64,000 bases of DNA from IMG/VR virus record IMGVR_UViG_3300028886_001504. One strand, given 5' to 3'. The number at the start of each line of letters is the position of its first letter. Position 1 is the stretch's first letter. The notes under the pieces are model-generated. The model had not been told where the DNA came from, made no database searches, and worked only from the letters and a program-made list of their open reading frames with translations. This DNA is from a virus. This document shows positions 1,134-55,686 of this stretch, in pieces. A program made the translations under genes and the position numbers.

Positions 1134-1550
1134 TTAGTTGAAATTTATTTGTCCGTTTGCAAAATAGCCATAAGTGCCAGTTACATACACAGGAGTATAA
1201 TGGTAGTACCAATCGGTGATGTTGTTGCTTTCTACAGGCTTAACACCAGGCGCTGTTGCCAAAGTGATGTGTTTAGTTTGGTTATCTGATACTAAGTTCC
1301 GTACTAACACAGCCACCGCCTTATCCGATACACCAACACCAATGATTTCCAAGACAACTTTTTTACCTATAAGGTGTTTAAAGCGCTCAAAATTTTCATC
1401 TTGTGTTTCCACATTACCATTGTAACATGTCGTTCCGTGATGTGCAAAAATCGTCCAATCTTTTGGTATGAGATATTTATATCTGTCCAGAAGTTTGGCT
1501 TTAGATTCTTCATCTAAGAAACAACCGATATAGTTCCATTTCTTAACCAT
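1134..1550 (-). CDS. putative 2H phosphoesterase (LigT-like)
   Basis: Two H-x-T motifs (HGT, HIT); track start is TTG, first ATG at 1550; sigma-A -7 motif at 1569-1576. Confidence 0.4.
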   Translation of the reverse strand: MVKKWNYIGCFLDEESKAKLLDRYKYLIPKDWTIFAHHGTTCYNGNVETQDENFERFKHLIGKKVVLEIIGVGVSDKAVAVLVRNLVSDNQTKHITLATAPGVKPVESNNITDWYYHYTPVYVTGTYGYFANGQINFN

Positions 1551-1568
1551 TGTTCTTGTTATTTTTTG

Positions 1569-1576
1569 CAAAGATA
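1569..1576 (-). promoter_or_regulatory. Bacteroidota-type -7 element (TAtcTTTG on minus strand)
   Basis: CAAAGATA immediately upstream of minus-strand gene start. Confidence 0.45.
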
Positions 1577-2912: not shown

Positions 2913-3278
2913 TCATTCTTTGTTATTTTTACAGAACTTTTTCAAATCATTTGCAACATTTTCAAAATAACTTGACATGTCGAACAAATCGCTTTTCATG
3001 TCTTCAAGGTCATCAATACAGTTCTGAACCTTATCTTTTAACTGGCGTATAGTGGCGGTAGCTACATATTTATCTTCACCGAGTAAGAATTTCATAGCCT
3101 CTGTCATGTTGTCAGGAACATTAACAATCTGATATGCCCAGCCACTGTTTTTGCTATTTGATTCTAAAACAGCGTCCTCTATTTGTGTCAACGTCTTACC
3201 TTTTTCCAGGTAATAATCAACAGAGTAAACATGCACCACTTCGCCTGTGTTTGTACTAGTTGTAATTACTATTTTCAT
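2913..3278 (-). CDS. hypothetical protein
   Basis: 121 aa ORF. Confidence 0.45.
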   Translation of the reverse strand: MKIVITTSTNTGEVVHVYSVDYYLEKGKTLTQIEDAVLESNSKNSGWAYQIVNVPDNMTEAMKFLLGEDKYVATATIRQLKDKVQNCIDDLEDMKSDLFDMSSYFENVANDLKKFCKNNKE

Positions 3279-3481
3279 TTTATAATGATTTTTGTGATGT
3301 TACTAAACATAAGAGAATATGGTATTTCTATTTTTTTGCCATGGCTTTCCAGTATGCCAACGTTTTCGTTTGCGCTTTTTTTAACATCATAAACCTCGCC
3401 TTTTACTGGCATAACGTCCTTAAAAGACTCCATGTTGTTCATGATGTAATCGACAATCTTTTCTGTAACCCTTATTTTCAT
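3275..3481 (-). CDS. hypothetical protein
   Basis: 68 aa ORF, 4-nt overlap with the upstream gene. Confidence 0.4.
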   Translation of the reverse strand: MKIRVTEKIVDYIMNNMESFKDVMPVKGEVYDVKKSANENVGILESHGKKIEIPYSLMFSNITKIIIK

Positions 3482-3657
3482 TGCTCTTCATAAATTATGG
3501 CATAACATTCACCAATCATAGGAATGTATGTGCGTTTGACTTCCGTTACCTGTGGATAGACGGTATATCCACCGCGTTTTTTCTTTTTGGCAACAACAAT
3601 CTTGATGCCATCGGTGTTAGCCACCTGTTCTGTTAATTCTTTTGCTGTCATCATAAC

Positions 3658-5922: not shown

Positions 5923-5948
5923 CTTTTTGGTTTTTCAAACTATTTATA
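5923..5948 (+). promoter_or_regulatory. promoter-like 26-mer CTTTTTGGTTTTTCAAACTATTTATA
   Basis: Identical 26-mer at 12506-12531 upstream of tnpB; core AAACTATTTATA recurs upstream of every + strand gene. Confidence 0.5.
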
Positions 5949-5983: not shown

Positions 5984-7192
5984 ATGAATGACGTAACATG
6001 TAAAAAACTGTTTAACACCGAAGATGGTAAGCAAAAACGAATGGTTAGTATTTTAAAAATTTTTAGAGAAAACAAGAATGTGGAAGAATATGTAAAAAAC
6101 AGATATTCGGACTCCACATCAATTAAAGAAAGTGTTTATCGTATATTAAATAATATTGAAATTAGGCCACAGTGTAGGTGCGGAAAAGTATTAGAGTTTG
6201 ATTATCCTCTAAACACTTTCCATAAATATTGCTGTTCAAAATGCCAAAATTCAGACCCAGAAAAGATTAAAAAAGACAAAAAAACTAAACTGGATAAATA
6301 TGGGTCAGAAAATTACAACAATTTTGAAAAAATGAAAGAAACTTGCTATGAACGCTATGGAACAACATCTTTCACTAAGACGAATGAGTTTATAGAAAAA
6401 ACAAAAAAGACTAATTTTGAAAAGTATGGTGTAGATTGGTGATTACAGACTGATACTTGTAAAGATGAAACGAAAAAAGTAAAAAAAGAAAAGTACGGTG
6501 ACGAGAACTATAATAATCGAAATAAGGCGAAAAATACATCACTAGAAAGATATGGGGTTGAAAACACTATGCAATGGGAGGGTTCAAAGCAAAAAGAAAA
6601 AGAAACTTGCCTAAAAAGATACGGTGTTACTTCTTATGCTAAGACAGATGAGTTTAAGAAAAAACTAAAAGCCACTTATCTTAAAAAATGAGGGGTTGAC
6701 AATTGCACAAAAAGCGAAGAATGAAAAAACAAATGATATTCAAATGAAGAGTGAGTAAAAGAAAAAGTAGATAAAATCTACAACACTATGTTAAAAAACT
6801 GTAGTTTTTCACATTCTAAACCAGAGCAAGTTATCTTCAATTTCTTAAAAAATGAGTATCCTGATACAATTTATCAATACAAAGAAAAAAGATACCCCTT
6901 CAAATGTGATTTTTATATCCCTTCAAAAGATTTATTTATTGAATACAACGGCTATTGGGCACATGGCGGACACTTTTTTAACGAGAATGATGAAAAAGAT
7001 GTAGAAAAACTGAAATCATGAAAAGAGAAAAGTAAAAAATCTAAACAATACGAAAATGCAATAAAGACATGGACAATAAAAGACCCTTTGAAACTTAAAA
7101 CTTTTCAAGAAAACAATCTTAAACACATAATACTGTGATATGACAGTTTTAAAAATTTAGAGCAGATAAAAGAAATGGTGGACGAATTTTAG
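5984..7192 (+). CDS. homing-endonuclease-like protein: Zn finger, four ~35-aa repeats (ETC..RYG), C-terminal DUF559/Vsr-like nuclease; 7 in-frame TGA read as sense
   Basis: One frame from 5984 to TAG at 7190-7192 with TGA at 6440, 6689, 6722, 6734, 6752, 7019, 7136 and no TAA/TAG; C-terminal CDFYIPSKDLFIEYNGYWAH matches the DUF559 pattern. Confidence 0.6.
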
Positions 7193-12153: not shown

Positions 12154-12384
12154 TTAATCAATAATCGTCAGATAAACGCCATGTTGGTAATACAATGTAT
12201 CCGATAAATCATCCTCATTTTTGCAGATATATTTCTCCAAATACTTATTAAGGTTCGCTCTATGGATTATCATTCTACCATTAGGTATGTCAATGATGTC
12301 ATCATCAGAAACAATCTTATTTCTGAAATCAATCTCTTTTGCAAGCGTCTTAAAATCCTCAAGTGTTAGTTTCCGTGTTTTCAT
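12154..12384 (-). CDS. hypothetical protein
   Basis: 76 aa ORF. Confidence 0.4.
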   Translation of the reverse strand: MKTRKLTLEDFKTLAKEIDFRNKIVSDDDIIDIPNGRMIIHRANLNKYLEKYICKNEDDLSDTLYYQHGVYLTIID

Positions 12385-12505: not shown

Positions 12506-12531
12506 CTTTTTGGTTTTTCAAACTATTTATA
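12506..12531 (+). promoter_or_regulatory. promoter-like 26-mer identical to 5923-5948
   Basis: Exact repeat; 18 nt upstream of the tnpB ATG. Confidence 0.5.
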
Positions 12532-12548: not shown

Positions 12549-13757
12549 ATGAATGTAATTACCTATAATGTAGAACTTAACCCAACACCAGAAACTTTCA
12601 ACTACTGGAAGAAAATGCTGGTGTTGTATGCACAGGCATATAATGACTGTGCAAACTACATTGTGGATAAAAAACTTCCTCTTTCCATTAAAACCGTTCA
12701 CAACAAAGTCTACGATAGGCTTCGGAAAGCCTACCAAGAACTCCCTTCACAAGCCGTTATCAGACTTTACAAGGATGTTATTCCTGCGTTCAAGTCTATA
12801 CGCTCGAACAAACAAAAAGACACTGAAACGCCACAGAAGAAAAATCTGTCAATGAGGCTTGACAAACGCCTCTACACAAGAGTGGATAGCGATGGTATTG
12901 TAATCACCTCAGAGGTAGCTAGAAAACGTGTTAAAATACCATTTGTCTTGTATGATAAAGTAACAGAACTTCTAAGCAAATACGAAGTATCTGACCCAAC
13001 GATTTTCATTCGTGATAACAGGTTATACCTGTCAATACCGTTTTCAATCCCAACCATTGTCACCGACAATGACAATGCTGTTGGCATTGACCTTGGCATT
13101 AAACGGTTGTTCGTTACCTCAGAAGGTGTGGCATTTAAAGACAAAGCATATCTTCGTGAGCGAAGGAAGGTGCGGCACAATAAACGCAAACTACAAGAAA
13201 AATCAAATAAAAGTCGCACGGCAAAAAAACACCTTAAGAAAATCAAAAGAAGGGAAGTCAACCTCTCAAAAGATATGTTGCATAGAGCAACTAACGCAGT
13301 TCTCGAATCAACATCAGCATCAGTTCTTGTAGTCGAAGACCTATCGAAGATAAAAACCAAAACCTCCAAAACCAAAGAAGGGTTTAAGAGAACAAAACAC
13401 AATAATTCTTTCTCTCAAGTTCCCGTTAGGGAATTCAGAGACATGTTGGCTTACAAGGCACAGTTACACGGAAAACGTGTTGAAACAGTTTCTCCAACTT
13501 ACACCAGTCAAATGGATTGCCGTACTTCAAATAGAGACGGCAACAGAAAAGGTTGCCGATACTATTGCTCAGACGGAATCGTCTTTGACGCAGATTGGAA
13601 CGCAGCAGCCAATATCGCTATTAGAGCGAACCACCCGTTATCGAATATACTGCCATTGGATGGCACACTTAAATTCCTGAACGGCAGGGCACAGTCAATT
13701 GCCCATACGACGAAGGACACACCCTTTCGTCAAGCCCACGAATTAATTCGTGGGTAG
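12549..13757 (+). CDS. tnpB: TnpB (IS605 OrfB-family RNA-guided nuclease)
   Basis: RuvC-like GIDLGIKRLFV; C-terminal Zn finger CRTSNRDGNRKGCRYYC with DADWNAAANIA. Confidence 0.85.
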   Translation: MNVITYNVELNPTPETFNYWKKMLVLYAQAYNDCANYIVDKKLPLSIKTVHNKVYDRLRKAYQELPSQAVIRLYKDVIPAFKSIRSNKQKDTETPQKKNLSMRLDKRLYTRVDSDGIVITSEVARKRVKIPFVLYDKVTELLSKYEVSDPTIFIRDNRLYLSIPFSIPTIVTDNDNAVGIDLGIKRLFVTSEGVAFKDKAYLRERRKVRHNKRKLQEKSNKSRTAKKHLKKIKRREVNLSKDMLHRATNAVLESTSASVLVVEDLSKIKTKTSKTKEGFKRTKHNNSFSQVPVREFRDMLAYKAQLHGKRVETVSPTYTSQMDCRTSNRDGNRKGCRYYCSDGIVFDADWNAAANIAIRANHPLSNILPLDGTLKFLNGRAQSIAHTTKDTPFRQAHELIRG

Positions 13758-13761: not shown

Positions 13762-14394
13762 CTATAGTTCGGTTTTAATGTCAACTCTTTTCATTAGTTT
13801 CTTAAACAGATTAATGGTAGTGTCAATATCAAAATCAGCGCTGTGCAGTTCACCTTCATTAATGGATAAGCACCCAAGCAGCATTGCAACAGTGCCAAGT
13901 TTGAAATTATCTGGTTTGATGCCCATAGGAGGAAGCACCAGCATAGCAAGCTGACGCACATCCATAGTTACAACCTTATTGAAGAAATTTGACTTATAAA
14001 ACCCTTGTTTATATCTCTCTGGATTAGGGCTAATCTCGTGATAACGAGCAAAAAAATTGTATAGGAAATCATCATCAAACTTGGCGTTGTTGTATCCAAC
14101 TGTAATGAACTTCTCATACAAGTCACGATTGAACGGGTCAACATACTTTAATAACATTGTACAAAGTTCCTTATAGACCTCCTCCCCAGAAGGATATGCC
14201 ATAATTTGTTCCTCCGTTACGTGACTGACTTCAAGAGCCTTCTCGTCAATCAAAGCACCGTCAAACGGCTTAATATGATAGTTGAAGGTTTCTTTTAATT
14301 TACCATCAACGAAAATTTTTCCACTAAACTGATGAATGGCGTTCTTATTAACATCCGTTCCAGTTGTTTCTAAATCGTAAAAAAATAGTTTCAT
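13762..14394 (-). CDS. DnaQ-like 3'-5' exonuclease (DEDD)
   Basis: Exo I FYDLETTG, Exo II FDDDFL, Exo III HSADFD. Confidence 0.75.
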   Translation of the reverse strand: MKLFFYDLETTGTDVNKNAIHQFSGKIFVDGKLKETFNYHIKPFDGALIDEKALEVSHVTEEQIMAYPSGEEVYKELCTMLLKYVDPFNRDLYEKFITVGYNNAKFDDDFLYNFFARYHEISPNPERYKQGFYKSNFFNKVVTMDVRQLAMLVLPPMGIKPDNFKLGTVAMLLGCLSINEGELHSADFDIDTTINLFKKLMKRVDIKTEL

Positions 14395-14762
14395 GCTTTA
14401 AAGTGTTCTTTAAATTTATCTTGTGACCAATATTTTATGTCTTCAATGCGTTTTTCAATGTCTGCCATCAAATGCTCTTTATTTTTGAAAACGCCCTTGC
14501 TTCTTAACCAAAAATTATAAACTGGTGTGGTGTCAAGAGTGTCTGCTAATACTTCCCAACCTATGTCAGAGACGCAATAACGTCTGTCAAATGCTCTTGC
14601 CAATATTGCAAGACTTACAAAGTCCTTACATCTAAAGAAAATGTGATAAGGCTCCTTATAATGCCCACAGCAACTCTCAAATGTTTCAACCCCTGGTAGC
14701 TCATTCAACGCATCACAAAACGCAATGCACTCCTCATCCATGTATTCATCGTATTTATTCAT
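14391..14762 (-). CDS. hypothetical protein
   Basis: 123 aa; TGA stop overlaps the downstream ATG (ATGA). Confidence 0.4.
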   Translation of the reverse strand: MNKYDEYMDEECIAFCDALNELPGVETFESCCGHYKEPYHIFFRCKDFVSLAILARAFDRRYCVSDIGWEVLADTLDTTPVYNFWLRSKGVFKNKEHLMADIEKRIEDIKYWSQDKFKEHFKA

Positions 14763-16898: not shown

Positions 16899-17678
16899 TT
16901 AATCTGTGTATGTTACAACTCTTATATTATCGTCACTAAAGAAATCACCAGTAAGGCTCTCTGCAAATTGTTCGACTGTTTGAATAAACGCATAAAGATT
17001 CATAACATCATACAATTCATCCTCGAACATATAGTCAATGTCTTCTTCATAACATGCACACTCCGAATCATTATCTTCTTCTTTTTCTTGTGTCTTAGGA
17101 AGTTTATCATGTAAAGACGGAAGTGTGTGTTTTTTGACAAGCAAATTAACCTTTTTGTCTATGTTATTCAATTTATCCATGACAATACAGTTCTCAAATT
17201 TTTTATCAAAAAGCCTCAATAGTCGCTTTTTCCACATTTCAAATGATTTATTGTATGCTTCCCATAATTCGGCTATTGTGGCATATGACTCATTATACCA
17301 CCATTTACCACCCCAAGTTTTTTCTTTACCATATTTTTCTTTGTAATCCCTATTCTCTTTGTCAATAATTGCGTATTGTTCATTAAACCAAGCCTTTACG
17401 CCATCACTAACATCTGTTGGTAATCCTCTTTTTGCAAGAGGACTGTTAATCATCATGTTGTTAAACAAGTCCCTTACAGACCCCTGTTTCCAAAACTTAA
17501 TGAAACGGTCATAACCAACATGATTCTCATCCAACACATATGGCTTTGCTTTTGTAGTCTCAACCTTTCCATCCACGATTACGGTTGTTTCTCTATCTTT
17601 AAATGGATAAAGCGCATACAAAAGTTCCCATTTGCCTTTCTTTTGTACTTCTATGAAAAAACAAGATGTTGTGCTCAT
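16899..17678 (-). CDS. hypothetical protein
   Basis: 259 aa ORF. Confidence 0.45.
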   Translation of the reverse strand: MSTTSCFFIEVQKKGKWELLYALYPFKDRETTVIVDGKVETTKAKPYVLDENHVGYDRFIKFWKQGSVRDLFNNMMINSPLAKRGLPTDVSDGVKAWFNEQYAIIDKENRDYKEKYGKEKTWGGKWWYNESYATIAELWEAYNKSFEMWKKRLLRLFDKKFENCIVMDKLNNIDKKVNLLVKKHTLPSLHDKLPKTQEKEEDNDSECACYEEDIDYMFEDELYDVMNLYAFIQTVEQFAESLTGDFFSDDNIRVVTYTD

Positions 17679-18955
17679 TTTTTGTAGTGTTTTATTATTA
17701 TTTTAATACAATCTTCTCTGGTGAGCCGTGGCCTTCTGTAGACTTTTTCAAGTAGAAAATTTTGCACATTTTTTATTTCTGGCCCTGCTTCAATGTTAAG
17801 GGCTGTCATTATGTCATTACCATCAACTGGTAGTTTATATCTGAACAAAGAACTATCGTTATTAAAATGTTTCTTTGCTGTCGCTATCAGCCTATTATAA
17901 GTGATTTTGTCAAATGTTATACCATAATAAGCCTCAGCCACATTCATAAACATGACAAAACATTTACATTTATACTCCAATCTTCTAACATTCCTTGATA
18001 ACAAAATGTTCTTTTCCTTTAACAGTTCCCTAACCGTATCAAGTATGAAAACGACTTCGTTCACTATCTCATTGGAAAGTTTCAATCCTCTAAGTTCATT
18101 ATACACATTTTTCCAATCGTAGTGCATCATAACAGCCAACAAGGTGGTTTGTGTGGAACCCTCTTTCTTGCACAAATTCAATCCCTCAATAAGCGATTTT
18201 TGTTTAAAACCGTCAATATCGTCAAGACCGTTGAAAATATATTTCATTGCACCAATTAGCATTAAAATCTCAATGGCTTCTGAAACATGCTCAGAATTGA
18301 GGATTTTCAACAATTCATCAGCAATTCTTTCTCTACTTATAATTGAAAGTCTATGTGCATTCTTACACATACCCTCATAGGTTTTTGTTTCGATAACAGA
18401 ATCATAACGAGAAAAGAATCTGACAGCCCTCATAATTCTTAATGGGTCATCGCTGAATATGATGTCTGGTTCACCACAACACTTCAGCACATTGTTGTTT
18501 AGGTCTTCAATGCTTGTACCGTTGAAATCACACACTTTGTTTGTCGATATGTTACGATAAATTGCATTGTAGGTGAAATCCCTTCTGGTACAGTCATCCA
18601 TAATAGTACCAAAGGCGGTTTCTGGATTACGTGATTCCATATCGTGGTACGCTTCTTTCCTTGTCTGTACGGCTTCCAATTCGATATCTGGAAAGTTTTT
18701 CAAACGAAACATCGTAGTACCGAAATGTTCATAGACAACAACAGTACCAACAGTGCGTCCGTTAGATTCAAGCCATTTGGAAAACTTGATACCGCCGTCT
18801 AAAATGTCTACCACCAAATCAATATCCTTAATCTCTCTACCAGCAATAAAATCCCTCTCACATCCACCGACAGAGTAGACGTGGCCTTCAAACTCTGAAC
18901 CTTTGATAAGGCTCCTGATTTCCGCTAATACCTCTTGATATCTCTTTATTTCCAT
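17675..18955 (-). CDS. CCA-adding enzyme / poly(A) polymerase-family tRNA nucleotidyltransferase
   Basis: Head-domain motif GGCERDFIAGREIKDIDLVV. Confidence 0.75.
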   Translation of the reverse strand: MEIKRYQEVLAEIRSLIKGSEFEGHVYSVGGCERDFIAGREIKDIDLVVDILDGGIKFSKWLESNGRTVGTVVVYEHFGTTMFRLKNFPDIELEAVQTRKEAYHDMESRNPETAFGTIMDDCTRRDFTYNAIYRNISTNKVCDFNGTSIEDLNNNVLKCCGEPDIIFSDDPLRIMRAVRFFSRYDSVIETKTYEGMCKNAHRLSIISRERIADELLKILNSEHVSEAIEILMLIGAMKYIFNGLDDIDGFKQKSLIEGLNLCKKEGSTQTTLLAVMMHYDWKNVYNELRGLKLSNEIVNEVVFILDTVRELLKEKNILLSRNVRRLEYKCKCFVMFMNVAEAYYGITFDKITYNRLIATAKKHFNNDSSLFRYKLPVDGNDIMTALNIEAGPEIKNVQNFLLEKVYRRPRLTREDCIKIIIKHYKK

Positions 18956-20067
18956 TAGTTTATATCCATTGTAAATGTTTCAAACTCCATATAGTCTGGC
19001 CACTCAAAGCCCATAATCATGTTTTTAAAAACATCTTCGCCTATTTGACCTTCTCTTCTTTCAATGTTTTTATCCAGCGTATCTGCCTGAACATAAACAT
19101 AGTGAAATACATACCCTTTCGAAGCCAAACGCTGGTGATAATCATCACGGTACTTTTTCTTTAGGTTGATGTTGTTAATGATGATTGTTTGCTCGTTTTT
19201 TGCGGCCTCTGCCATCCTGTTATTGAAAATTTTGGTAACTCTATCCTCGTCATATGCTTTTGCTACAATCTTTTCTCCCTCTTTGCAGAGTCCAAGTTCC
19301 ACGCGGATGTCATCACGACACAACACAACAGCGTTTTTCCAATTTTCATCTACCATACGCTTTATTTTAATGTATGTGTCTTTGCCACTACCAGGAAGGC
19401 CAATCATGCAAATGCAAGTAGGCGCTCCTTTGCGCTTATTCCATATGTAATCACCATCAACAGGAATAAGACTCTTTTCGTCATAACAACCCATATCCAG
19501 TGCAATATCTCTAATTGTCTGGAGTTTCATATAGTCTATGGATTTATCTTGAAGTTGTTCGCTACCCATAATATCGGCTTCTTTAAGCGCAATCAACACT
19601 TTAAGATAGCATCGTTTAGATAAACGAACAATCTTTTCAAGTTGTTCTTTTCCTTCGAAAACCCTAAGAGGGTCCATGTGCCAACGTACCAAGGCACAAA
19701 CCTCTTCACGAAAATTAACAGGAGCGTCCCATAAAAGGTATCTTGTGATTTTTTCTCCCTCCACTTCATGGTTATATGCATGCCAGTTACCTTTCTTAAA
19801 CTCTGTGGTAACTCCCTTACCAATATCGTGGAACAATGCAGAGGTGATAAGAAGCGATTTCTCCAATTCCGTGAAGTTATGAGCGTTTTCTTCTATAAGT
19901 TTCACGGCAGCGTTGACAACGCGCTCAGTATGTACCGCAGCGTTACCTTCTTTATGCCACACAGGATTCTGTTCGCAAGTTTTCAATCTACTAAACTCAT
20001 GAACTTTCCAAACATTCTTCCAATTGACTTCGTAGGTATCGAAGTTTATTAATTTTTCCAACTTCAT
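18955..20067 (-). CDS. HD phosphohydrolase fused to P-loop polynucleotide-kinase-like domain
   Basis: HD motif LFHDIGK; Walker A GLPGSGKDT. Confidence 0.55.
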   Translation of the reverse strand: MKLEKLINFDTYEVNWKNVWKVHEFSRLKTCEQNPVWHKEGNAAVHTERVVNAAVKLIEENAHNFTELEKSLLITSALFHDIGKGVTTEFKKGNWHAYNHEVEGEKITRYLLWDAPVNFREEVCALVRWHMDPLRVFEGKEQLEKIVRLSKRCYLKVLIALKEADIMGSEQLQDKSIDYMKLQTIRDIALDMGCYDEKSLIPVDGDYIWNKRKGAPTCICMIGLPGSGKDTYIKIKRMVDENWKNAVVLCRDDIRVELGLCKEGEKIVAKAYDEDRVTKIFNNRMAEAAKNEQTIIINNINLKKKYRDDYHQRLASKGYVFHYVYVQADTLDKNIERREGQIGEDVFKNMIMGFEWPDYMEFETFTMDIN

Positions 20068-20173
20068 TTTAAAAACTCCTTTTCAAGTTCCTTAATATTT
20101 CTTTCTTTTTCAAGACGCTCCAAACACTCAACCACGTATTCTTCATCAGTCTTTTTTTTCTTTTTCTTTGCCA

Positions 20174-20683
20174 TTACAATCCGAATTTATTCAACAAGGG
20201 TTCCATAAAGTTTCTGAGTGGTGTTTCTCCACCAAGTTTGTCTATCTGCTTTTCCATTGTTTCTCTGGCGTTCAATTGTGATTTGGTTTTGGTATATCTA
20301 CTACATTCCCAATCAACAATCATGCCAACCCAATCAACACCATCCCAATGATGGTCAATTGCCCACTCAAGATGATGTTTTGCATGGTGTCTATGAAACT
20401 TTTGTACCTTTTCATACGGCATTACTAATTTCATCCAAGGCTTGTACCAATCATGAAAAACATATTTAAAACGCCATACACCTAAATCCAAAGCCACATA
20501 TTGAAACGCTTTCCAATGGTTCCACCAGTAAACAAATGTGCTTCTTTGTGATTTATCGAACTTAGTAAGGTTATTCAGTTTTTCTTGATGATTCCCTCTT
20601 CTCATGTCATTACAGTATGAGTTTATCATCTTGTTTTGCATCGTCATAATCGTGACCATCGGCTGATTTTGGGCTACGTACAC
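20174..20683 (-). CDS. hypothetical His/Trp-rich protein
   Basis: 169 aa ORF. Confidence 0.4.
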   Translation of the reverse strand: MYVAQNQPMVTIMTMQNKMINSYCNDMRRGNHQEKLNNLTKFDKSQRSTFVYWWNHWKAFQYVALDLGVWRFKYVFHDWYKPWMKLVMPYEKVQKFHRHHAKHHLEWAIDHHWDGVDWVGMIVDWECSRYTKTKSQLNARETMEKQIDKLGGETPLRNFMEPLLNKFGL

Positions 20684-29832: not shown

Positions 29833-29844
29833 AAACTATTTATA
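29833..29844 (+). promoter_or_regulatory. AAACTATTTATA promoter-like motif
   Basis: 20 nt upstream of + gene 29864. Confidence 0.45.
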
Positions 29845-29863: not shown

Positions 29864-30358
29864 ATGTTTATTACCGAAAACGACATTAAAAGAATGGTTA
29901 GAGAATGTGCCAAGAAAGTTCTTAACGAATTTTACGGCACTTTTGATGATACAAGAGATGCACCATGGAACCGTACTGATGATTCAAGGACCAGTAAAGA
30001 ATCAACCGAATGGAACGAATTTTATTGTGATTTAACTGATTTAATTAATCAGAATCCACAATACGCAGAAATGCTCCAACCTTTACAAGAAACCCCAGGC
30101 GATTGGACTTCTTGTAATGTGGGTAAAGTCACATTATGGTATGATGTAACTGATTCTGATTTTGAACAAGACGAAGATGGATATGTTTTTGCAAACAATA
30201 GCGAAATAGACACAGATAGCGTAGAAATAGAACTATCGAAAGACAATCAATATCGCTCAACATTTCCTCCAGAACTAATTCAACTGCTCGAAAACGAAGT
30301 ACAAACCGAATTTTCTGAAAACAGAGATTGATTAATAAGTCTATTAAACGATAATTAA
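29864..30358 (+). CDS. small acidic protein, paralog A (N-terminus ITENDI..V.E..KK); 1 in-frame TGA
   Basis: Track ORF ends at TGA 30329-30331; reading through gives 9 more codons to a TAA that sits directly before a terminator hairpin. Confidence 0.45.
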
Positions 30359-32821: not shown

Positions 32822-32833
32822 AAACTATTTATA
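32822..32833 (+). promoter_or_regulatory. AAACTATTTATA promoter-like motif
   Basis: 19 nt upstream of + gene 32852. Confidence 0.45.
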
Positions 32834-32851: not shown

Positions 32852-33439
32852 ATGAGTAAACAAGTTAATATAACCGAAAATGACATCATAAAATTAGTTA
32901 CAGAATCTGTCAAAAAACTCATCAAAGAAGACATATATAATGCCTGGAAGCCTATGGAATGTGATGATGAAAATTATTCAGAAATTACAGAAACTAAGCA
33001 ATTAAGAAATATCATCAGAAGGATGGTTAAAGAGGCTTTTGACATGAGTTACGGCGCACCTACTGGAATCGAACAACCAAAGCCAGCAGGTGGTGTTAAT
33101 ACTAATACCAATGAAAAACTTGACAGCGCACATGACATAAGAAAAAAAATCAGACAGTGGGCAAAAGCACATGAAAAAGGGCTTGGAAAAGAAAAGAGTG
33201 GTGGCAGAATGAATAAATCAAAACGTTCACTCGTTATTACATGACTCAAAAGGAATGATGTAAACTGCGCTGAAATTATGAGAAAACTTTGGCATCCAGC
33301 AAAAGAGGATGAGGATAGTGCAAGAAGTTATTTCTACAAATGTAGGGATGGTAAACTAAACGATTCTGGTGTACCATACAGATTCACGGATGAGGAAATC
33401 AATGCGCTATATAGAATTAAATCAGAAGCATCAGCATAA
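32852..33439 (+). CDS. small protein, paralog B (shares N-terminus with 29864 gene); 1 in-frame TGA
   Basis: Track ORF ends at TGA 33242-33244; same frame continues 64 codons to TAA 33437-33439, which abuts a terminator. Confidence 0.5.
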
Positions 33440-36399: not shown

Positions 36400-37154
36400 A
36401 AACTGTCATCTGGTATAAATGTCGGTACTTTTATAATATCAAGTTTAAACAAGTTCTTCTTGTGCATACTATCAATTTTTTCCTTGACGGACTTATCTTT
36501 ACAGAGTCCAGTTCTAATATAGTGGTCAAGCGTGTCGTAGGTAAAGCCAAACTTCTGTTCATCACTCATACTTGCTGGCAGTCCGTCATCGGGTGTCTTA
36601 TCAACCCATATACTTGGAAGTCCCAACACTCTACCCACCTCTTTGACCTCTGTGACTGTGAGTTTAGCTAACGGCGCAAAGCTTCCAACAGAATCACCAA
36701 ATAGTGTACTGTAACCAACCCAATCTTCTGAAAGATTACAGTTGCAGGAAACCCTACCGTTAAATGTTTGTGCAATGGCGTACAACATAGTCATCCTAAT
36801 CCGTGGTGGAATATTTTGAATGGATTGTACACTCCAAGAAAAATGGTGTGGAACTTTGGAGAATTCTCCACAGATTTCACCAATAGGAGCCACAATAAAC
36901 GTAATACCAAGATGCTCTGCAATTTTATCAGCATCATTAAGTCCTTGATTACTGGCGGGCATTGCTACACCTATAACCCTATCAGCACCAAGAGCTTTTA
37001 CGCATAAAGCAGCAACGATGGTACTGTCTTTGCCACCGCTAAGGCCAACAACGGCGTTACAATTTTTGCCGTTTACTTCAAACCATTCTTTAATCCAGTT
37101 AACACACTGGTCAGTAATTTCTTTGTACATGTTCATATTCAATACATTTTTCAA
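36390..37154 (-). CDS. nadE: NAD+ synthetase (NH3-dependent)
   Basis: PP-loop GLSGGKDST. Confidence 0.75.
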   Translation of the reverse strand: MKNVLNMNMYKEITDQCVNWIKEWFEVNGKNCNAVVGLSGGKDSTIVAALCVKALGADRVIGVAMPASNQGLNDADKIAEHLGITFIVAPIGEICGEFSKVPHHFSWSVQSIQNIPPRIRMTMLYAIAQTFNGRVSCNCNLSEDWVGYSTLFGDSVGSFAPLAKLTVTEVKEVGRVLGLPSIWVDKTPDDGLPASMSDEQKFGFTYDTLDHYIRTGLCKDKSVKEKIDSMHKKNLFKLDIIKVPTFIPDDSLWQ

Positions 37155-37962
37155 AGTCTTCTAATTTAACACTACATGAACCCCAACTACCGTTAACACT
37201 GACAACGACCATTGGAGTAACGCAGTTAACATACCAGTTTGTAATATTAACTGACATACCAACGAACCCAAACACTCTTTGATTATGGTAGATTGATGAA
37301 TCAATATAAGGTATTGGTTGCTTTAGTTTAAAACTCTTATTTGATGGAAACTTATTTTTTCCCAATTCAATAACTTTTTCTGCTTCATCGTAAGCAGTCA
37401 CAAAATCATGCAGACTCTTAAACCTAAGAATTTGTTCACAACTAGAACTACGAAGAATGCTTCCAAGTTCCTTATCCTTATTATAAGGAGCATCAATTAA
37501 AATGCCGTACTTGACACTGTTACCCTTGAAGTTCCAATCATTGTCATCAATCAGATAATCGCCTTCAACAAGCGTTTTATCCTTCATAAAGCAAATACCG
37601 TCTGGTTCAATACCAAATTTCTCCAACCATTCAAGAGTGTGTTTCTTGTTGGCATATGTCTTTTGATATGTCAATATGATGACTTTACCATACTTTTTCA
37701 GTGTGTCAACATCCTCCTTGACATACGGGAAAGGCTGCGTGTCCAAGAACATTTCTTTTCCGTGTTCTTGAAAAAACCAATATGACGGTGTTTGTCCAGT
37801 CAACCTTTCAATTTCTGGAAAAGAAATTTCAGTTTTGTAGTCTATAACATCCTCTATCTTTTTCTGATTGTCAGGGAAATGTTTGTTGTAAACCTCAATC
37901 ATTTTAGATAAAGTTTGCCTTAGAACTTCATCACAATCAATTAAGAACACTTTTTCTTTCAT
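37111..37962 (-). CDS. HAD-like hydrolase
   Basis: Motif I FLIDCDEVL. Confidence 0.4.
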   Translation of the reverse strand: MKEKVFLIDCDEVLRQTLSKMIEVYNKHFPDNQKKIEDVIDYKTEISFPEIERLTGQTPSYWFFQEHGKEMFLDTQPFPYVKEDVDTLKKYGKVIILTYQKTYANKKHTLEWLEKFGIEPDGICFMKDKTLVEGDYLIDDNDWNFKGNSVKYGILIDAPYNKDKELGSILRSSSCEQILRFKSLHDFVTAYDEAEKVIELGKNKFPSNKSFKLKQPIPYIDSSIYHNQRVFGFVGMSVNITNWYVNCVTPMVVVSVNGSWGSCSVKLEDFEKCIEYEHVQRNY

Positions 37963-38471
37963 CGTATTTTATTCTTTTTTGTTAAAGGAATCAGTACTAA
38001 TGGACTAAATGGCAGAGTATCTATATGTTTCTCCGCTTCTTCGCTTGTCATATTTTTTTCTTTCATAAGGAAGTCATATATTTTTTCATCGTATATAACT
38101 CTATAATCGTGTGATATGCCAATGATTGCAAACTTATACTCTGGTAGTTTAAGTTCATCAGCATCCAACCCAAGAAGGCTGAGAAAATATTCATCATCCA
38201 TGTCTGGAATCTCCATAAGTACGGTTGGCCCATTTGGAAAGTATGGTATTGCTCTTATTGTGTTATATTCAATAAACTCAATAGCTTCTTCATACGTCAT
38301 GTCATCTGTGTCCATAAGACACTCAGCCATTTTCTCGTAATCATATATGACCCTCCCCTCATTTGACATTCCTATAATAGCGGAATCATAATTCGGATTT
38401 TCGAAAATAGTCACCCCTTCGTAGCCACTCTCGACTATTAAGTCTCTATTTGGTCTGTTTTCAGCTTCCAT
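37959..38471 (-). CDS. hypothetical protein
   Basis: 170 aa ORF. Confidence 0.4.
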   Translation of the reverse strand: MEAENRPNRDLIVESGYEGVTIFENPNYDSAIIGMSNEGRVIYDYEKMAECLMDTDDMTYEEAIEFIEYNTIRAIPYFPNGPTVLMEIPDMDDEYFLSLLGLDADELKLPEYKFAIIGISHDYRVIYDEKIYDFLMKEKNMTSEEAEKHIDTLPFSPLVLIPLTKKNKIR

Positions 38472-42407: not shown

Positions 42408-42971
42408 CTATCTGTTTACGATATTAATCTGGCACATTTGCATAGTTTCCAAGGCTGCTTCGTGAGACTCTGGTGTGACACCAGCACAACAATCAGCATA
42501 CACATTGATAGTTGCAGTATCATAAAGTTTGGCTTTTGCTAAAAGAACGTTTGATACAACACAAATGTCTGTGCAGAAGCCAACAAAGTCCACGGTTACA
42601 TCATCATTACAAAATGAGTCCATAAACAACCTATCAGCCAAATCATATGAACCAAAAGTAGGCTTTTCAAGGTATTCAATATGCACACCCCTTGCTTTTG
42701 CGTTGTCAAGCGCTTCCTTAATTGAAGGTTCAACCAACCAGCCATTGGTGTATTTTACACAGTGAGTAACAGGAAGTTTCTTACCCTCATTGGTTTCGAG
42801 ATAATCCGTGTCATGAGTGTCCAAGGTAACATAAATAGCCTTACCTTCGAACTCATTAATCTTCTTTACGATATTAGGAACGGCCTTGATAGCCTCCTCG
42901 TTTCGCAATGCCCCCGTGATAAAATCGTTTTGCGTATCAATTACGCAGAGAATTACTTTTTTCATTTCCAT
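42408..42971 (-). CDS. pncA: isochorismatase-family hydrolase, nicotinamidase-like
   Basis: CVIDTQNDF motif. Confidence 0.6.
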   Translation of the reverse strand: MEMKKVILCVIDTQNDFITGALRNEEAIKAVPNIVKKINEFEGKAIYVTLDTHDTDYLETNEGKKLPVTHCVKYTNGWLVEPSIKEALDNAKARGVHIEYLEKPTFGSYDLADRLFMDSFCNDDVTVDFVGFCTDICVVSNVLLAKAKLYDTATINVYADCCAGVTPESHEAALETMQMCQINIVNR

Positions 42972-43078: not shown

Positions 43079-43168
43079 TTTAACAATATCCTTACTGTTT
43101 TTTTAACCATCCGCTTTATGTCGGATTCTGTTTTTTGATATTAACAACTTTTAAGCATCTACAACTGT

Positions 43169-44047
43169 TCAGCCAGATGGAATACCGTCTGCACCTGTTG
43201 TCCAACCTGACATATTTGAACTTTTAACAAAAGTTCCTGTGTTTCCTACACCTTCTACCCATTCAGTTGTACTGGATGGAAAGTATCTGGTTGCGAGGCA
43301 TTTGATGTAATTTAAACTAGCGCAATCACAAAACATTTGATAATAACAAGAACTCAATATGGTTGTTGCGGGTAATTCAGGTGCTTTTGTTAATGATGTA
43401 CAACTTCTAAACATATATTGATAGCAAGCTTGTTCTAAAGTAGTTGCGGGTAATTCAGGTGCATTAACGAGGCTAGTGCAATTATAAAACATCCCATAAT
43501 AACAGCAATAAGTTAAAGTAGTGGCTGGCATAATTAATTTACTAGCATCTGTTAACCCAGTACAATAAATAAATAACCCATTAAAATTATACATATCTTG
43601 TAGTGTTGTAGCGGTAGCAAAACCAGCGCTACTAATCATACTCATTATGTTACCTTTTACTTTAAATTGACATGTTGTACCGTAAAAACTGTTAGACTGA
43701 CTTTCTCTATTGTCGCCATATGTTGTATTATCCCCCCTAAACTGAACAGTATCACCCGAAACAACGCTTATAGATACGCCTTCTGTATTAGCTGTTATAC
43801 TTGTCCATTCTCCGTTATTCTTCTTGTATTCAATTGTTTTTGGTGTACAATTTTGTGCTATTCATATAATATTACCATCGCCAGTTACTTCAAATGTAAG
43901 TGGTGTGCACAGAAGTTTTTCATAACCTGATTTGTTATAATCAACCCCTTTCCCTTCGGTATAAGAGACTCAAGGTTCTAAATAACTATTATCTCTTGCC
44001 TCCGTATAAGCAGATTGTGATTCAAAGTAATGCGTGTATTTTCCCAT
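43169..44047 (-). CDS. BspA-type leucine-rich-repeat protein; 2 in-frame TGA
   Basis: Track ORF 43169..43645 continues upstream in frame to ATG 44045-44047 across TGA at 43862-43864 and 43970-43972; repeats ..ATTL..CY.YMF..CTSL..APELP. Confidence 0.5.
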
Positions 44048-44058: not shown

Positions 44059-44071
44059 TCTCTATAAATAG
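44059..44071 (-). promoter_or_regulatory. AACTATTTATAGA promoter-like motif (minus orientation)
   Basis: Reverse complement of ctctataaatagtt, 12 nt upstream of ATG 44047. Confidence 0.4.
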
Positions 44072-44089
44072 TTGATACGCTACAAAACA

Positions 44090-47387: not shown

Positions 47388-48323
47388 TCATTTTATTTTT
47401 TTCTTACTTATTAAATTAAGCAGGTATTTTCCATAAGCATTTTTCTTCATTGTTTCACCTGCTTTAAAAATATCTTCTTTGGAAATCCATTTATTGAGAT
47501 ATGCAATTTCTTCCAAACAAGCAACTTGTAGCCCTTGTCGAACTTCAATTGTTTTCACATAATTTGAAGCGTCCAGCAAACTTTCAAACGTCCCTGTATC
47601 AAGCCAAGCATAACCTCTATCCAAAAGAATCAAATCTAACATCGTACCGCCATCATTTGCAATGGTTGTATTATAATACTTGTTGAGTTCTGTGATTTCA
47701 AGTTCACCTCTTTCTGACGGTTTGATTGACTTTGCAATCTTTGAAACACCTTTAGGGTAAAAGTACAACCCAGTAACAGCAATATTCGATTTAGGTTCTT
47801 GTGGTTTTTCTTCCAAAGATATGACGGAATACAAGGTATTACCTTTGCCAGTGTTTTTTGTTACCTCAGCAACCCCATACCTTTCTGGGTCTGACACCTC
47901 ATACCCAAAAACAACTGCTCTTGGATTTGCTTCGTCCTCAACAATTGATTTAGCAAATAGCAATTTTTTACTAAGCCCTGGCCCATGGAAGATATTATCA
48001 CCAAGCACCATACAAACAGGGTCATCACCTATAAACTCTTCACCAATAATAAACGCTTGCGCCAGTCCTTCTGGTTTTGGTTGCACAGCATATGTTAAAT
48101 TGATTCCAAACTGAGAGCCATCACCAAGTAAACGGCTGAAAGATTCTGAATCCTCTGGTGTAGTAATAATAAGAATATCCCTAATACCAGCCAACATTAA
48201 GACTGATAAAGGATAGTAAATCATCGGTTTGTCATATACTGGTAAGAGTTGCTTTGAAACACCTTTTGTAATGGGCCACAGTCTGCTTCCACTACCGCCA
48301 GCCAATATAATTCCTTTAGTCAT
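47388..48323 (-). CDS. rfbA: glucose-1-phosphate thymidylyltransferase
   Basis: [11 protein letters not shown]; length and pattern of RmlA. Confidence 0.85.
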
Positions 48324-55037: not shown

Positions 55038-55223
55038 TCACTTGTTTATGAACAAAAAGAAAATAATAAGAAATATTATACCAAGTCCAACACTAATCCA
55101 AAGTGGTGACAATACCCACCACCAACTCCAGTCAATTACTTTAAGGAGTTTCAAGACAATAAACACAACAAGTAGAATAGTTGAAATACTAGTCCCACCA
55201 GAAACAGTCGTTTTTTCACTCAT
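55038..55223 (-). CDS. small membrane protein
   Basis: 61 aa hydrophobic. Confidence 0.35.
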   Translation of the reverse strand: MSEKTTVSGGTSISTILLVVFIVLKLLKVIDWSWWWVLSPLWISVGLGIIFLIIFFLFINK

Positions 55224-55686
55224 CTTTTTTAAGTTTTAATATAGTTTTTATTTTCTCAATATCTTCTATTGTAATTCCAGTTTCCCTATCTGTCTTAATA
55301 AAGTTATCGGCTTGTCCTAATAACATGTCACTATCATCATCTACAATCACATATTCATAGTGTGAATCTGCATAACATGGGCCAAACTTCGTACCCATAC
55401 CATGAAATGTGTCTCGTAACCACTTTTCAATCTCATTACCCCTACATATCCAATCTTGATAAAAATGTTCGGTATATCCAACGATTGGTAAAGTTAATCC
55501 ACACCCACGAAGAGATTTCTCAGTTCTTCCGTTATCATAACCCCACGAAGAGGATATTACTACCTCTACACCTTCCAACTCATTCAATAAAGCGACACAC
55601 GCTGGGTCTATGAACCCTTTACCTGTCTTTAAGAATTCATATCCAGCAAGTACACCATCAATATCCAAAAAAATAATACGCTTCAT
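55216..55686 (-). CDS. HAD-like phosphatase
   Basis: Motif I FLDIDGVL; -7 motif at 55695-55702. Confidence 0.55.
   Translation of the reverse strand: MKRIIFLDIDGVLAGYEFLKTGKGFIDPACVALLNELEGVEVVISSSWGYDNGRTEKSLRGCGLTLPIVGYTEHFYQDWICRGNEIEKWLRDTFHGMGTKFGPCYADSHYEYVIVDDDSDMLLGQADNFIKTDRETGITIEDIEKIKTILKLKKDE

What the first reader, a model, noticed from the sequence alone, without database searches (positions are those of the whole stretch)
14391..14395. Core genes use TGA as a genuine stop (ATGA overlaps), so the recoding is gene-class specific rather than genome-wide code 4
The 14391..14762 gene ends in TGA overlapping the ATG of the DnaQ-like gene (ATGA). The same arrangement occurs at 20067-20071, where a small upstream ORF ends on TGA overlapping the kinase gene ATG. 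The long core genes (dnaK, ligA, NAMPT and others) contain no internal TGA and encode Trp only as TGG. TGA is therefore both stop and sense in one genome, depending on the gene.
Basis: seen in the sequence. Interest (0 to 1): 0.55.

Follow-up and report, generated by a model that had tools for sequence, protein, structure and literature searches.

The report
TGA is both stop and tryptophan
In this stretch of a giant Lak-like gut phage, TGA ends about one in six ordinary genes but encodes tryptophan in a few self-contained accessory genes with their own promoter motif, a partial code change of a kind already described in other phages.

Summary
ATGA at 14391-14394 (minus strand) joins gene 14391..14762 to the DnaQ-like gene 13762..14394. 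The second ATGA is at 20064-20067, not 20067-20071.

TGA is a real stop in backbone genes. Orthologues of the focal gene end at the same residue with TAA. Five other genes swap TGA with TAA/TAG at or near matching ends. 78 standard-compatible genes (17,783 codons, 276 TGG) have no internal TGA, and 13 (17%) end in TGA.

TGA is also tryptophan. Five window genes carry 18 in-frame TGAs and no in-frame TAA/TAG: three homing endonucleases, a BspA-like LRR protein, and gene 32852..33439. In four of them TGAs fall on conserved Trp columns; in HNH 55747..56442 the match is weak.

Four of the five sense genes follow the motif AACTATTTATA. Backbone operons follow Bacteroidetes-type TTTG/TAnnTTTG promoters. 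No suppressor tRNA appears in the 82 kb I could read of the 384-kb contig.

This matches partial stop-codon recoding (Borges et al.; Mgcod "dual-coded" genes). Two points differ: Lak phages use TAG→Gln, and TGA is not depleted as a stop here. Verdict: interpretation supported; a new member of a known kind.

The parts
14391..14394 (-). ATGA overlap: TGA stop of 14391..14762 and ATG start of 13762..14394
   Evidence: Orthologous stop is TAA in L010/L011.
14391..14762 (-). Focal 123-aa gene of unknown function, terminated by TGA
   Evidence: No Pfam or PHROG hit. Six homologues, all 116-133 aa. C-terminus conserved up to the TGA, not beyond it.
13762..14394 (-). DnaQ-like/RNase_T exonuclease gene. 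Ends in TAG here and in TGA in relatives L006-L009.
20064..20174 (-). 36-aa Lys-rich ORF. TAATG overlap at its start, ATGA overlap (20064-20067) with the HD/kinase gene 18955..20067 at its end.
   Evidence: A 36-aa gene is called at the same place in L006.
17675..18955 (-). CCA-adding enzyme gene, TGA stop in an ATGA overlap with 16899..17678
   Evidence: Pfam PolyA_pol. The Lak-C1 homologue ends with TAA within 1 residue. L006/L007 keep TGA.
54059..55033 (-). 324-aa gene, TGA stop in an ATGA overlap with 53298..54062
   Evidence: The L002 orthologue ends ...PLKLIE-TAA where the window has ...PLKLEQ-TGA.
55216..55686 (-). 156-aa gene, TGA stop inside the 8-nt overlap ATGAGTGA with 55038..55223
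   Evidence: Same geometry (ATGTTTGA) and a TGA stop in L001.
2913..3278 (-). 121-aa gene ending in TGA. Orthologues end in TAA within 0-2 residues.
47388..48323 (-). RmlA-like nucleotidyltransferase gene ending in TGA. The L001 orthologue ends in TAG, with unaligned tails of 7 and 4 residues.
37959..38471 (-). 170-aa gene, TGA stop in an ATGA overlap with 37111..37962 (which also ends in TGA)
58083..58367 (-). 94-aa gene, TGA stop in an ATGA overlap with 57805..58086
5984..7192 (+). DUF7487 homing endonuclease. 7 in-frame TGA (6440, 6689, 6722, 6734, 6752, 7019, 7136) read as Trp. Ends in TAG.
   Evidence: Pfam and PHROG hits span the TGAs. 4 of 7 TGAs lie on invariant W columns of 18 homologues. 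Same-locus homologues in L015/L017 use TGG only.
32852..33439 (+). 195-aa gene with one in-frame TGA (33242-33244) read as Trp
   Evidence: The 64 aa after the TGA form a conserved C-terminal domain in 77 proteins. The TGA column is W in 8 of 10 homologues.
43151..44047 (-). BspA-like leucine-rich-repeat protein. 3 in-frame TGA (43970-72, 43862-64, 43169-71) read as Trp. Ends in TAA.
   Evidence: All three lie on invariant or >=90% W columns. The family C-terminus GWTVxDA lies after the last TGA. The gene is absent from the syntenic site of L001.
55747..56442 (-). HNH/endonuclease VII-like homing endonuclease with 3 in-frame TGA. The only TGA-sense gene without a clear AACTATTTATA motif.
   Evidence: PHROG hit across two of its three TGAs (residues 38-201; the TGA at codon 37 lies just outside). 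Weak support for W or an aromatic residue.
61290..61991 (-). HNH homing endonuclease between tRNA-Thr and tRNA-Cys with 4 in-frame TGA
   Evidence: PHROG hit. The TGA at codon 127 aligns with TGG-Trp in the L001/L002 homologues.
5938..5948 (+). AACTATTTATA promoter-like motif before the DUF7487 endonuclease
12521..12531 (+). AACTATTTATA motif before TnpB 12549..13757 (no TGA, 2 TGG)
29834..29844 (+). AACTATTTATA motif before 29864..30331. Its terminal TGA could be a stop or a sense codon; 8 more codons follow before TAA at 30358.
32823..32833 (+). AACTATTTATA motif before 32852..33439
44063..44073 (-). AACTATTTATA motif 15 nt before the LRR gene ATG
62010..62020 (-). GACTATTTATT variant of the motif, 18 nt before the HNH 61290..61991 ATG
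63539..63549 (-). AACTATTTATT variant before 62291..63520 (no TGA, 6 TGG)
60991..62137 (-). End of a tRNA array (Ser-GCT, Cys-GCA, Thr-TGT) that continues beyond the window. No suppressor tRNA here.

Best explanation
The window comes from a >=384-kb Lak-like megaphage that probably infects a standard-code Bacteroidetes host and uses TGA in two ways.

Backbone genes lie in long co-directional, translationally coupled operons. These sit behind host-type promoters (TTTG-N17-21-TAnnTTTG). In them TGA is an ordinary stop, used by about 17% of genes and most often in ATGA overlaps. These genes never use TGA internally.

A second set of genes are separate transcription units, mostly preceded by the phage motif AACTATTTATA 14-35 nt before the ATG. 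They include homing endonucleases, a BspA-like LRR protein and a few unknowns. In these genes TGA encodes tryptophan and termination is always by TAA or TAG.

Inferred, not shown: a TGA-reading suppressor tRNA(Trp, UCA), or an equivalent, is encoded elsewhere in the genome and becomes active after the host-promoter genes are expressed. TGA-bearing genes would then be translated only at that stage. Once suppression is on, TGA-terminated backbone genes would be read through for a few codons (median 5) to the next TAA/TAG, probably without harm.
For: TGA as a stop:
- Orthologous ends carry TAA/TAG where the window has TGA, or the reverse.
- The sequence after the TGA is not conserved as a reading frame (L006).
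- The 13 terminal TGAs sit 0-33 codons (12 of them <=10) from the next TAA/TAG. Joint probability under uniform placement is 6e-20.
- There are 8 ATGA overlaps.

TGA as Trp:
- LRR protein: 3 of 3 TGAs on W columns, and the conserved C-terminus lies after the last TGA.
- DUF7487 endonuclease: 4 of 7 on invariant W.
- Gene 32852: W in 8 of 10 homologues, and a conserved domain follows the TGA.
- HNH 61290: W against TGG in relatives.

Not pseudogenes:
- 24 in-frame TGAs in 8 genes of this genome, with no in-frame TAA/TAG and unbroken reading frames.
- TGG->TAG is as easy a mutation as TGG->TGA. For the 17 TGAs in four window genes, 0.5^17 = 8e-6.
- The same-locus endonucleases in L015/L017 use only TGG, so the TGAs arose as TGG->TGA changes.
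- The LRR gene and gene 32852 have genome-typical GC, 35.5%.

Class split:
- Motif genes with internal TGA versus other genes, Fisher p = 0.0015 (strict count) to 5e-6 (lenient count).
- The motif gives 11 hits against 3.65 expected.
- The same association holds in 18 kb outside the window.
- Host-type promoters: 17 hits against 0.9 expected, 11 of them 5-33 nt before backbone gene starts (one more 88 nt upstream).

Precedent: Borges et al. (10.1101/2021.08.26.457843) and the Mgcod preprint (10.1101/2022.06.29.495998).
Against: - No tRNA with a UCA anticodon, release factor or TrpRS was found in the window or in 18 kb of flanks. The remaining ~300 kb of the contig could not be read.
- Timing of expression is pure inference. 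No transcript or protein data exist.
- No structural or lysis genes lie in the window, so the 'late gene' label is untested.
- Two to four motif-driven genes have no TGA (TnpB, 62291..63520, and two in the flanks). One TGA-sense gene (HNH 55747) lacks a clear motif.
- Backup stops after TGA are not significantly closer than after TAA/TAG (p = 0.053).
- Close relatives seen here (L001, L002, L006-L009, L015-L017) show no in-frame TGA, so recoding rests on this one genome.
Confidence: 0.7

Rival explanations
1. Constitutive, partial suppression instead of a timed switch. A suppressor tRNA competes with RF2 throughout infection. Each TGA is read through at some fraction, so genes with 3-7 TGAs (selfish endonucleases, accessory genes) are made at very low levels. 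Backbone genes mostly terminate at TGA, with a minor extended isoform.
For: TGA is still a frequent stop (17%). Extensions are short (median 5 codons). The most TGA-rich genes are homing endonucleases, where low expression is tolerable. The Mgcod authors propose a 'soft switch'.
Against: The clean association with a distinct promoter motif, against host-type promoters, suggests separate transcriptional programmes. An LRR protein with Trp at three conserved core positions would be made very inefficiently. Nothing in the sequence measures suppression efficiency.
Confidence: 0.15
2. The phage uses the standard code throughout. The TGA-bearing genes are untranslatable imports from TGA-recoded phages, or decaying pseudogenes.
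For: All TGA-sense genes are accessory. The LRR gene is absent from the syntenic site in L001. The endonuclease is absent in L007-L009. These are mobile gene types. No suppressor tRNA was seen. Relatives carry no in-frame TGA.
Against: 24 TGAs and not one TAA/TAG in eight genes, which read through unbroken to TAA/TAG. Where homologues were aligned (four window genes), most TGAs sit on conserved Trp positions. The genes carry the phage's own promoter motif, which is also used in relatives, and genome-typical GC. Eight independent dead arrivals, all still intact, is improbable.
Confidence: 0.1
3. Genome-wide code 4, or a code-4 host. TGA is never a stop, and the ATGA 'stops' are Trp codons followed by short tails.
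For: Each TGA-terminated ORF does reach a TAA/TAG within 0-33 codons, so code 4 would not break any gene.
Against: Orthologues place TAA/TAG exactly at the TGA position. The tails are not conserved. There are zero TGAs among 276 Trp codons of the backbone, against 68% TGA in recoded genes. TGAs cluster at the extreme 3' ends (p = 6e-20).
Confidence: 0.03
4. TGA encodes glycine (code 25, as in phages of Absconditabacteria/Gracilibacteria) or selenocysteine in these genes.
For: Code 25 phages exist.
Against: The aligned residue is Trp or another aromatic, never Gly or Cys. Code 25 phages have TGA in about 90% of genes. The promoters here are Bacteroidetes-type.
Confidence: 0.01

Closest known systems
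Partially TGA-recoded ('code 4') gut phages, e.g. Agate, Jade and Sapphire clades (Borges et al. 2021 preprint / 2022)
   Same: - In-frame TGA = Trp in only a fraction of genes.
- Replication and metabolic genes are standard-code compatible.
- A homing endonuclease is among the families most biased to TGA.
- The predicted host uses the standard code.
- A suppressor tRNA is often not detectable (only 35% of code-4 genomes had one).
   Different: - Those authors argue that TGA is first lost as a stop (2.7% of stops in a standard-code relative). Here TGA ends 17% of backbone genes and is exchanged with TAA/TAG among relatives.
- Recoding here is sparse: 5 of about 85 genes in the window, and coding density rises only from 80% to 86%. 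That is below the +10% threshold used by a recent jumbo-phage survey (PMC13037316).
- No structural or lysis genes are visible here to compare.
- The link to a defined promoter motif is not described there.
'Dual-coded' blocks of multi-code phage genomes (Mgcod, Pfennig/Lomsadze/Borodovsky preprint 10.1101/2022.06.29.495998)
   Same: Early-type genes give nearly the same protein under either code. If they end on the reassigned codon, the alternative product is only a few residues longer (<30 nt). This is what is seen for 12 of 13 TGA-terminated genes here.
   Different: Mgcod describes large contiguous blocks, mostly in crAss-like phages and mostly for TAG. Here the TGA-sense genes are single insertions scattered through a standard-code backbone, not a block.
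Lak megaphages of Prevotella (Devoto 2019; Crisci 2021, PMC8346664)
   Same: - Closest phage-collection homologues of the CCA-adding enzyme (40% identity); the DnaK hits include 15 Prevotella (Lak) phage records.
- Very large contig (384 kb).
- Large tRNA array with tmRNA and intron-containing tRNAs.
- Bacteroidetes-type promoters.
   Different: All Lak lineages are reported to use TAG->Gln (code 15) with a CTA suppressor tRNA. Here TAG is a working stop (14 genes, swapped with TAA in orthologues), there is no in-frame TAG, and TGA is the reassigned codon. GC is 36%, against about 26% for Lak.
Genome-wide code 4 (Mycoplasmatota and their phages)
   Same: TGA read as Trp.
   Different: There TGA is never a stop and occurs in all gene classes. 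Here it is a conserved stop in most genes.

Membership tests
Partially stop-codon-recoded phage, TGA->Trp (Borges et al.) | In-frame TGA in otherwise intact genes, aligning with Trp in homologues | tested here: met
   LRR 3 of 3, DUF7487 4 of 7 invariant W, gene 32852 1 of 1, HNH 61290 1 clear. No in-frame TAA/TAG.
Partially stop-codon-recoded phage, TGA->Trp (Borges et al.) | Only a subset of genes is recoded; replication and metabolic (early-type) genes are compatible with the standard code | tested here: met
   78 genes, 276 TGG, 0 internal TGA, against 5 genes with 18 TGA.
Partially stop-codon-recoded phage, TGA->Trp (Borges et al.) | Phage-encoded suppressor tRNA for the reassigned codon | tested here: inconclusive
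   None in the window plus 18 kb of flanks, by ARAGORN, Rfam and a stem-loop scan. About 300 kb of the contig is unread. Several intron-containing tRNAs have uncertain anticodons.
Partially stop-codon-recoded phage, TGA->Trp (Borges et al.) | Structural and lysis (late) genes carry the recoded codon | not testable with these tools
   No structural or lysis gene lies in the window or the reachable flanks.
Partially stop-codon-recoded phage, TGA->Trp (Borges et al.) | The reassigned codon is rare as a genuine stop (proposed precondition) | tested here: not met
   13 of 78 genes (17%) end in TGA, with orthologue support for termination.
Dual-coded early genes (Mgcod) | Products under the two codes share the start, and their stops differ by <30 nt | tested here: met
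   11 of 13 TGA-terminated genes reach TAA/TAG within 8 sense codons; 58083..58367 (10 codons) is borderline and 2913..3278 (33 codons) fails.
Genome-wide code 4 | TGA never terminates translation | tested here: not met
   Orthologous TAA/TAG at the TGA position; non-conserved tails.
Lak megaphage coding (code 15, TAG->Gln) | In-frame TAG in many genes; TAG not used as a stop | tested here: not met
   Reading TAG as sense adds almost no coding (80.3 -> 81.7%). 14 genes end in TAG, swapped with TAA in orthologues.
Lak megaphage lineage | Shared gene content and tRNA features (large array, intron-containing tRNAs) | tested here: inconclusive
   CCA enzyme 40% identical to Lak. Intron-bearing tRNAs and tmRNA lie next to the window. 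No terminase or capsid phylogeny was possible.
Code 25 (TGA->Gly) | TGA aligns with Gly and occurs in most genes | tested here: not met
   Aligned residue is Trp or aromatic. TGA is internal in only about 6% of genes.

The most novel reading that the evidence does not exclude
This genome may be an early or 'ambiguous-intermediate' stage of a code change. TGA->Trp has taken hold only in autonomously transcribed selfish and accessory genes, while TGA still terminates one backbone gene in six.

If so, reassignment did not need prior loss of the stop codon. That contrasts with the depletion-first route proposed for recoded phages. It would also have arisen independently, with a different codon, in a relative of the TAG-recoded Lak megaphages. 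Homing endonucleases would be among the first beneficiaries.
Probability: 0.3. Interest if true: 0.6.

Novelty: new member of a known kind. Interest (0 to 1): 0.38.

Why it matters
- Annotation. This genome would be called 'standard code' by density-based pipelines. At least five genes in the window are then split or truncated; public gene calls fragment the endonuclease into three pieces.
- Biology. It is a clear case where the same codon is demonstrably a conserved stop and a conserved Trp codon in one genome. The split follows promoter type. That makes the 'code switch during infection' model directly testable, through promoter class, suppressor tRNA and readthrough tails.
- Evolution. Recoding can coexist with heavy use of the codon as a stop. 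A Lak-like lineage chose TGA rather than TAG.
- The general phenomenon is already in the literature, so the gain is incremental.

Tried and rejected
- Nucleotide searches of the phage collection around the finding found nothing. An exact 35-mer was not in IMG/VR.
- The search for related loci with the CCA enzyme, the HD-kinase and 37111..37962 found no relatives. Relatives came instead from 54059..55033 and from exact-protein look-ups of homologues.
- Backup-stop hypothesis (TAA/TAG unusually close after TGA): median 5 against 8 codons, one-sided p = 0.053. Not claimed.
- Nucleotide context of sense versus stop TGAs: no useful difference. A is the commonest following base in both.
- Suppressor tRNA: default ARAGORN, ARAGORN with introns, Rfam, and a scan for 5-bp stems around YTTCARN all failed to find a credible tRNA(UCA) in 82 kb. 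A database-wide pattern search for such a tRNA was judged too unspecific and was not run.
- HNH 55747: alignment with three distant phage homologues gives only weak support for W (one W, one aromatic column, one unconserved).
- 29864..30331: whether its TGA is a stop or a sense codon (8 further codons) could not be decided.
- Look-up of 1134..1571 failed because the public gene call uses a different start.
Full report
WHAT THE WINDOW IS
The window is 36% GC, and nearly all its genes lie on the minus strand. Identified genes:
- DnaK, NAD-dependent DNA ligase, NAMPT, NadE, RmlA/RmlD and an IMPDH-like enzyme.
- Thg1, a CCA-adding enzyme, an HD-kinase, two RNA ligases and RlaP.
- A TnpB, and three tRNAs.

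The best phage-collection matches are huge uncultured phages and Prevotella Lak megaphages: DnaK 62-64% to the huge uncultured phages, CCA enzyme 40% to Lak. An exact-protein look-up found the source: a 384,030-bp ENA metagenome contig. The window is record 94,148-158,147 on the reverse strand. About 18 kb beyond the two window ends became readable as L022 and L025.

THE OBSERVATION
On the minus strand, 14394..14391 is ATGA. TGA closes 14391..14762 and ATG opens the RNase_T/DnaQ-like gene 13762..14394. It joins a 36-aa ORF (20064..20174) to the HD-kinase gene. In total there are eight ATGA overlaps and one ATGAGTGA overlap.

A tiling of 78 standard-code ORFs covers most of the window (89% with ORFs of at least 60 aa). 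It holds 17,783 codons, 276 TGG and no internal TGA. Its stops are TAA 51, TAG 14 and TGA 13.

IS TGA REALLY A STOP THERE?
ATGA alone cannot tell. With TGA read as sense, the focal ORF would just run 7 codons further to a TAG. The test is comparative.
- **Focal gene.** It has six homologues, and I fetched their DNA. The window ends ...DKFKEHFKA-TGA. L010/L011 are 76% identical and sit in a different downstream context. They end ...DKFKEYFKA-TAA at the same residue. L006-L009 keep TGA in an ATGA overlap. In L006 (90% nucleotide identity) the TAG that would close the tail is TGG, so the tail is not a conserved frame.
- **Systematic comparison.**
  - 2913..3278 and 3478..3654: TGA here, TAA in L007/L008.
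  - 54059..55033: ...PLKLEQ-TGA here, ...PLKLIE-TAA in L002.
  - 47388..48323: TGA here, TAG in L001, though the ends differ by a few residues.
  - CCA enzyme: TGA here, TAA in Lak-C1 within one residue.
  - DnaQ-like gene: TAG here, TGA in four relatives.
  - 55216..55686: its TGA stop and 8-nt overlap are conserved in L001.
- **Position.** The 13 terminal TGAs lie 0-33 codons (12 of them <=10) before the next TAA/TAG. For uniformly placed Trp codons the joint probability is 6e-20.

TGA is therefore a working terminator in these genes. This also implies a host with RF2-type recognition of TGA.

IS TGA EVER SENSE?
Yes. Gaps in the standard-code map are filled by ORFs that are open if TGA is read through.
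- **BspA-like LRR protein, 43151..44047.** Its three TGAs fall on invariant or >=90% Trp columns of 14 homologues. The family's C-terminal GWTVxDA lies after the last TGA.
- **DUF7487 homing endonuclease, 5984..7192.** It has seven TGAs. Four are on invariant W and the others are on W or aromatic columns. Homologues sit at the same place, next to the IMPDH gene, in other megaphage contigs. They spell all 9-10 Trp codons as TGG, so the TGAs here arose as TGG->TGA changes.
- **Gene 32852..33439.** The 64 residues after its TGA are a conserved C-terminal domain in 77 proteins. The TGA column is W in 8 of 10 homologues.
- **HNH 61290..61991.** It has four TGAs, and codon 127 aligns with TGG-Trp in L001/L002.
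- **HNH 55747..56442.** It has three TGAs. A profile match spans two of them (the one at codon 37 lies just outside), but residue support is weak.
- **Outside the window, same genome.** A GIY-YIG endonuclease, a 530-aa HExxH protein and a 237-aa protein show the same pattern. This rests on ORF continuity only.

All eight genes end in TAA or TAG. They contain 24 in-frame TGAs and no in-frame TAA/TAG. In decaying pseudogenes, TGG->TAG would be as frequent as TGG->TGA. For the 17 TGAs in the four window genes first identified, 0.5^17 = 8e-6. Natural leakiness cannot carry a ribosome through 3-7 TGAs. Some dedicated decoder is therefore implied.

THE CLASS SPLIT
Four of the five window TGA-sense genes are preceded, 15-35 nt before the ATG, by AACTATTTATA or a one-base variant. 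So are TnpB, 29864..30331 and 62291..63520 (11 hits against 3.65 expected, 0 of 100 shuffles reaching 11). All three TGA-sense genes in the flanks are preceded by it too. The same motif precedes an LRR gene and an HNH gene in related phages that show no in-frame TGA in those genes.

Backbone operons instead start behind TTTG-N17-21-TAnnTTTG: 17 hits on the coding strand against 0.9 in shuffles, 11 of them 5-33 nt before a gene start (one more 88 nt upstream). From established knowledge (not tested here), this is the Bacteroidetes primary-sigma promoter consensus.

Motif genes are far more likely than other genes to carry internal TGA: Fisher p = 0.0015 by the strict count and 5e-6 by the lenient count. 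Exceptions are noted in the evidence against the best explanation.

MECHANISM
Shown:
- Dual use of TGA.
- The promoter association.
- The accessory or mobile nature of the TGA-sense genes. The LRR gene is absent at the syntenic site of L001 and the endonuclease is absent in L007-L009.

Inferred:
- Host RNA polymerase expresses the backbone under the standard code.
- A phage-directed programme then transcribes the motif genes while a TGA suppressor tRNA is present.
- Backbone genes that end in TGA then acquire short tails.

I found no suppressor in the window or its flanks. The tRNA array continues past the part I could read. It also contains several tRNAs with 20-104-nt insertions whose anticodons I could not assign.

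Rivals:
- A constant, partial suppression that throttles these genes. This is plausible and is a variant of the same idea.
- Untranslated imports or pseudogenes. This is unlikely for the reasons given above.
- Genome-wide code 4. The comparative evidence contradicts this.
- Gly or Sec decoding. The alignments contradict this.

COMPARISON WITH WHAT IS KNOWN
Partial recoding with standard-compatible early genes is published.
- Borges et al. report 26-71% of genes recoded in clades that infect standard-code hosts. They report recoding of late genes, and a group I intron endonuclease among the three Agate families most biased to TGA.
- The Mgcod authors describe 'dual-coded' early genes whose products under the two codes differ by <30 nt at the stop, and they suggest a 'soft switch'.

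The finding is thus a new instance, not a new principle. Three things differ:
1. Borges et al. propose that the codon is first lost as a stop (2.7% TGA stops in a standard-code relative). Here TGA is 17% of stops and is actively exchanged with TAA/TAG.
2. The nearest named relatives, the Lak phages, are reported to use TAG->Gln uniformly. Here TAG is a normal stop.
3. Recoding is so sparse (coding density 80% -> 86%) that a +10% density criterion, as used in a recent jumbo-phage survey, would miss it. Public gene calls do fragment these genes.

VERDICT
It is a new member of a known kind, of moderate interest. The main open point is the decoder and its timing. That needs the rest of the contig or experimental data.

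Noticed in passing
window 5938-5948, 12521-12531, 29834-29844, 32823-32833, 63853-63863 (+); 44063-44073, 62010-62020, 63539-63549 (-): An 11-nt motif, AACTATTTATA, lies 14-35 nt before the ATG of separately transcribed genes (endonucleases, TnpB, LRR, unknowns). It also lies before LRR and HNH genes in related megaphages. It is probably a phage-specific promoter. On divergent gene pairs, its reverse complement overlaps the -33 TTTG of the neighbouring host-type promoter.
   Followed up: partly
window, minus strand, e.g. 60925, 55695, 42993, 41211, 29804, 27118, 20891, 16363, 11100, 9896: Canonical Bacteroidetes-type promoters (TTTG-N17-21-TAnnTTTG) occur 17 times on the coding strand, against 0.9 expected. 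11 lie 5-33 nt before operon starts (one more 88 nt upstream). This points to a Bacteroidetes host.
   Followed up: partly
L025 1-10000 (9.8 kb beyond window position 64000): The tRNA array continues with at least 10 more tRNAs and a tmRNA (2459-2866). At least six further tRNAs have 20-104-nt insertions in the anticodon loop and were missed by default ARAGORN. Three insertions share GAAAC..ACAGCAA. One (5161-5317) contains a perfect acceptor/T-arm minihelix. Intron-bearing tRNAs are reported for Lak phages.
   Followed up: partly
window 12549-13757 (+): A TnpB (OrfB_IS605/Cas12f-like) gene is inserted between the DnaQ-like gene and 12154..12384. The insertion (about 12385-13771) is absent from the 90%-identical relative L006. 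Its 26 nt upstream are identical to those of the DUF7487 endonuclease (TTTTTGGTTTTTCAAACTATTTATA).
   Followed up: partly
window 5984-7192 (+) next to 7206-8429 (-): The DUF7487 homing endonuclease sits tail-to-tail against the IMPDH-like gene. It occupies the same position in at least two other megaphage lineages (L015/L016, L017/L018) and is absent in L007-L009. This looks like a site-specific homing locus.
   Followed up: partly
window 30409-32130 (-): A 573-aa DUF7788/DUF2828 gene lies in a 45% GC island, against a 36% genome mean. This suggests a recent horizontal acquisition. It begins with a called GTG, right after a host-type promoter at 32118.
   Followed up: no
window 29864-30358 (+), 32852-33439 (+); L022 14537-15250 (-): Three motif-driven genes share a short helix-like segment (ITENDI.K.V.E..KK.L). 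It is at the N-terminus in two of them and at the C-terminus in the third. This is an uncharacterised family with many metagenomic relatives.
   Followed up: partly
window 10210-24831 (-): A dense RNA repair and tRNA maintenance cluster: Thg1, RlaP, a YqeY-like protein, CCA-adding enzyme, HD-polynucleotide kinase and two RNA ligases. It is conserved in order in relatives L006-L009.
   Followed up: no
window 43023-43033 (+): A one-mismatch copy of the motif points into the 3' end of the LRR gene with no ORF behind it. It could be an antisense promoter, or just the -33 region of the promoter of 42408..42971.
   Followed up: no
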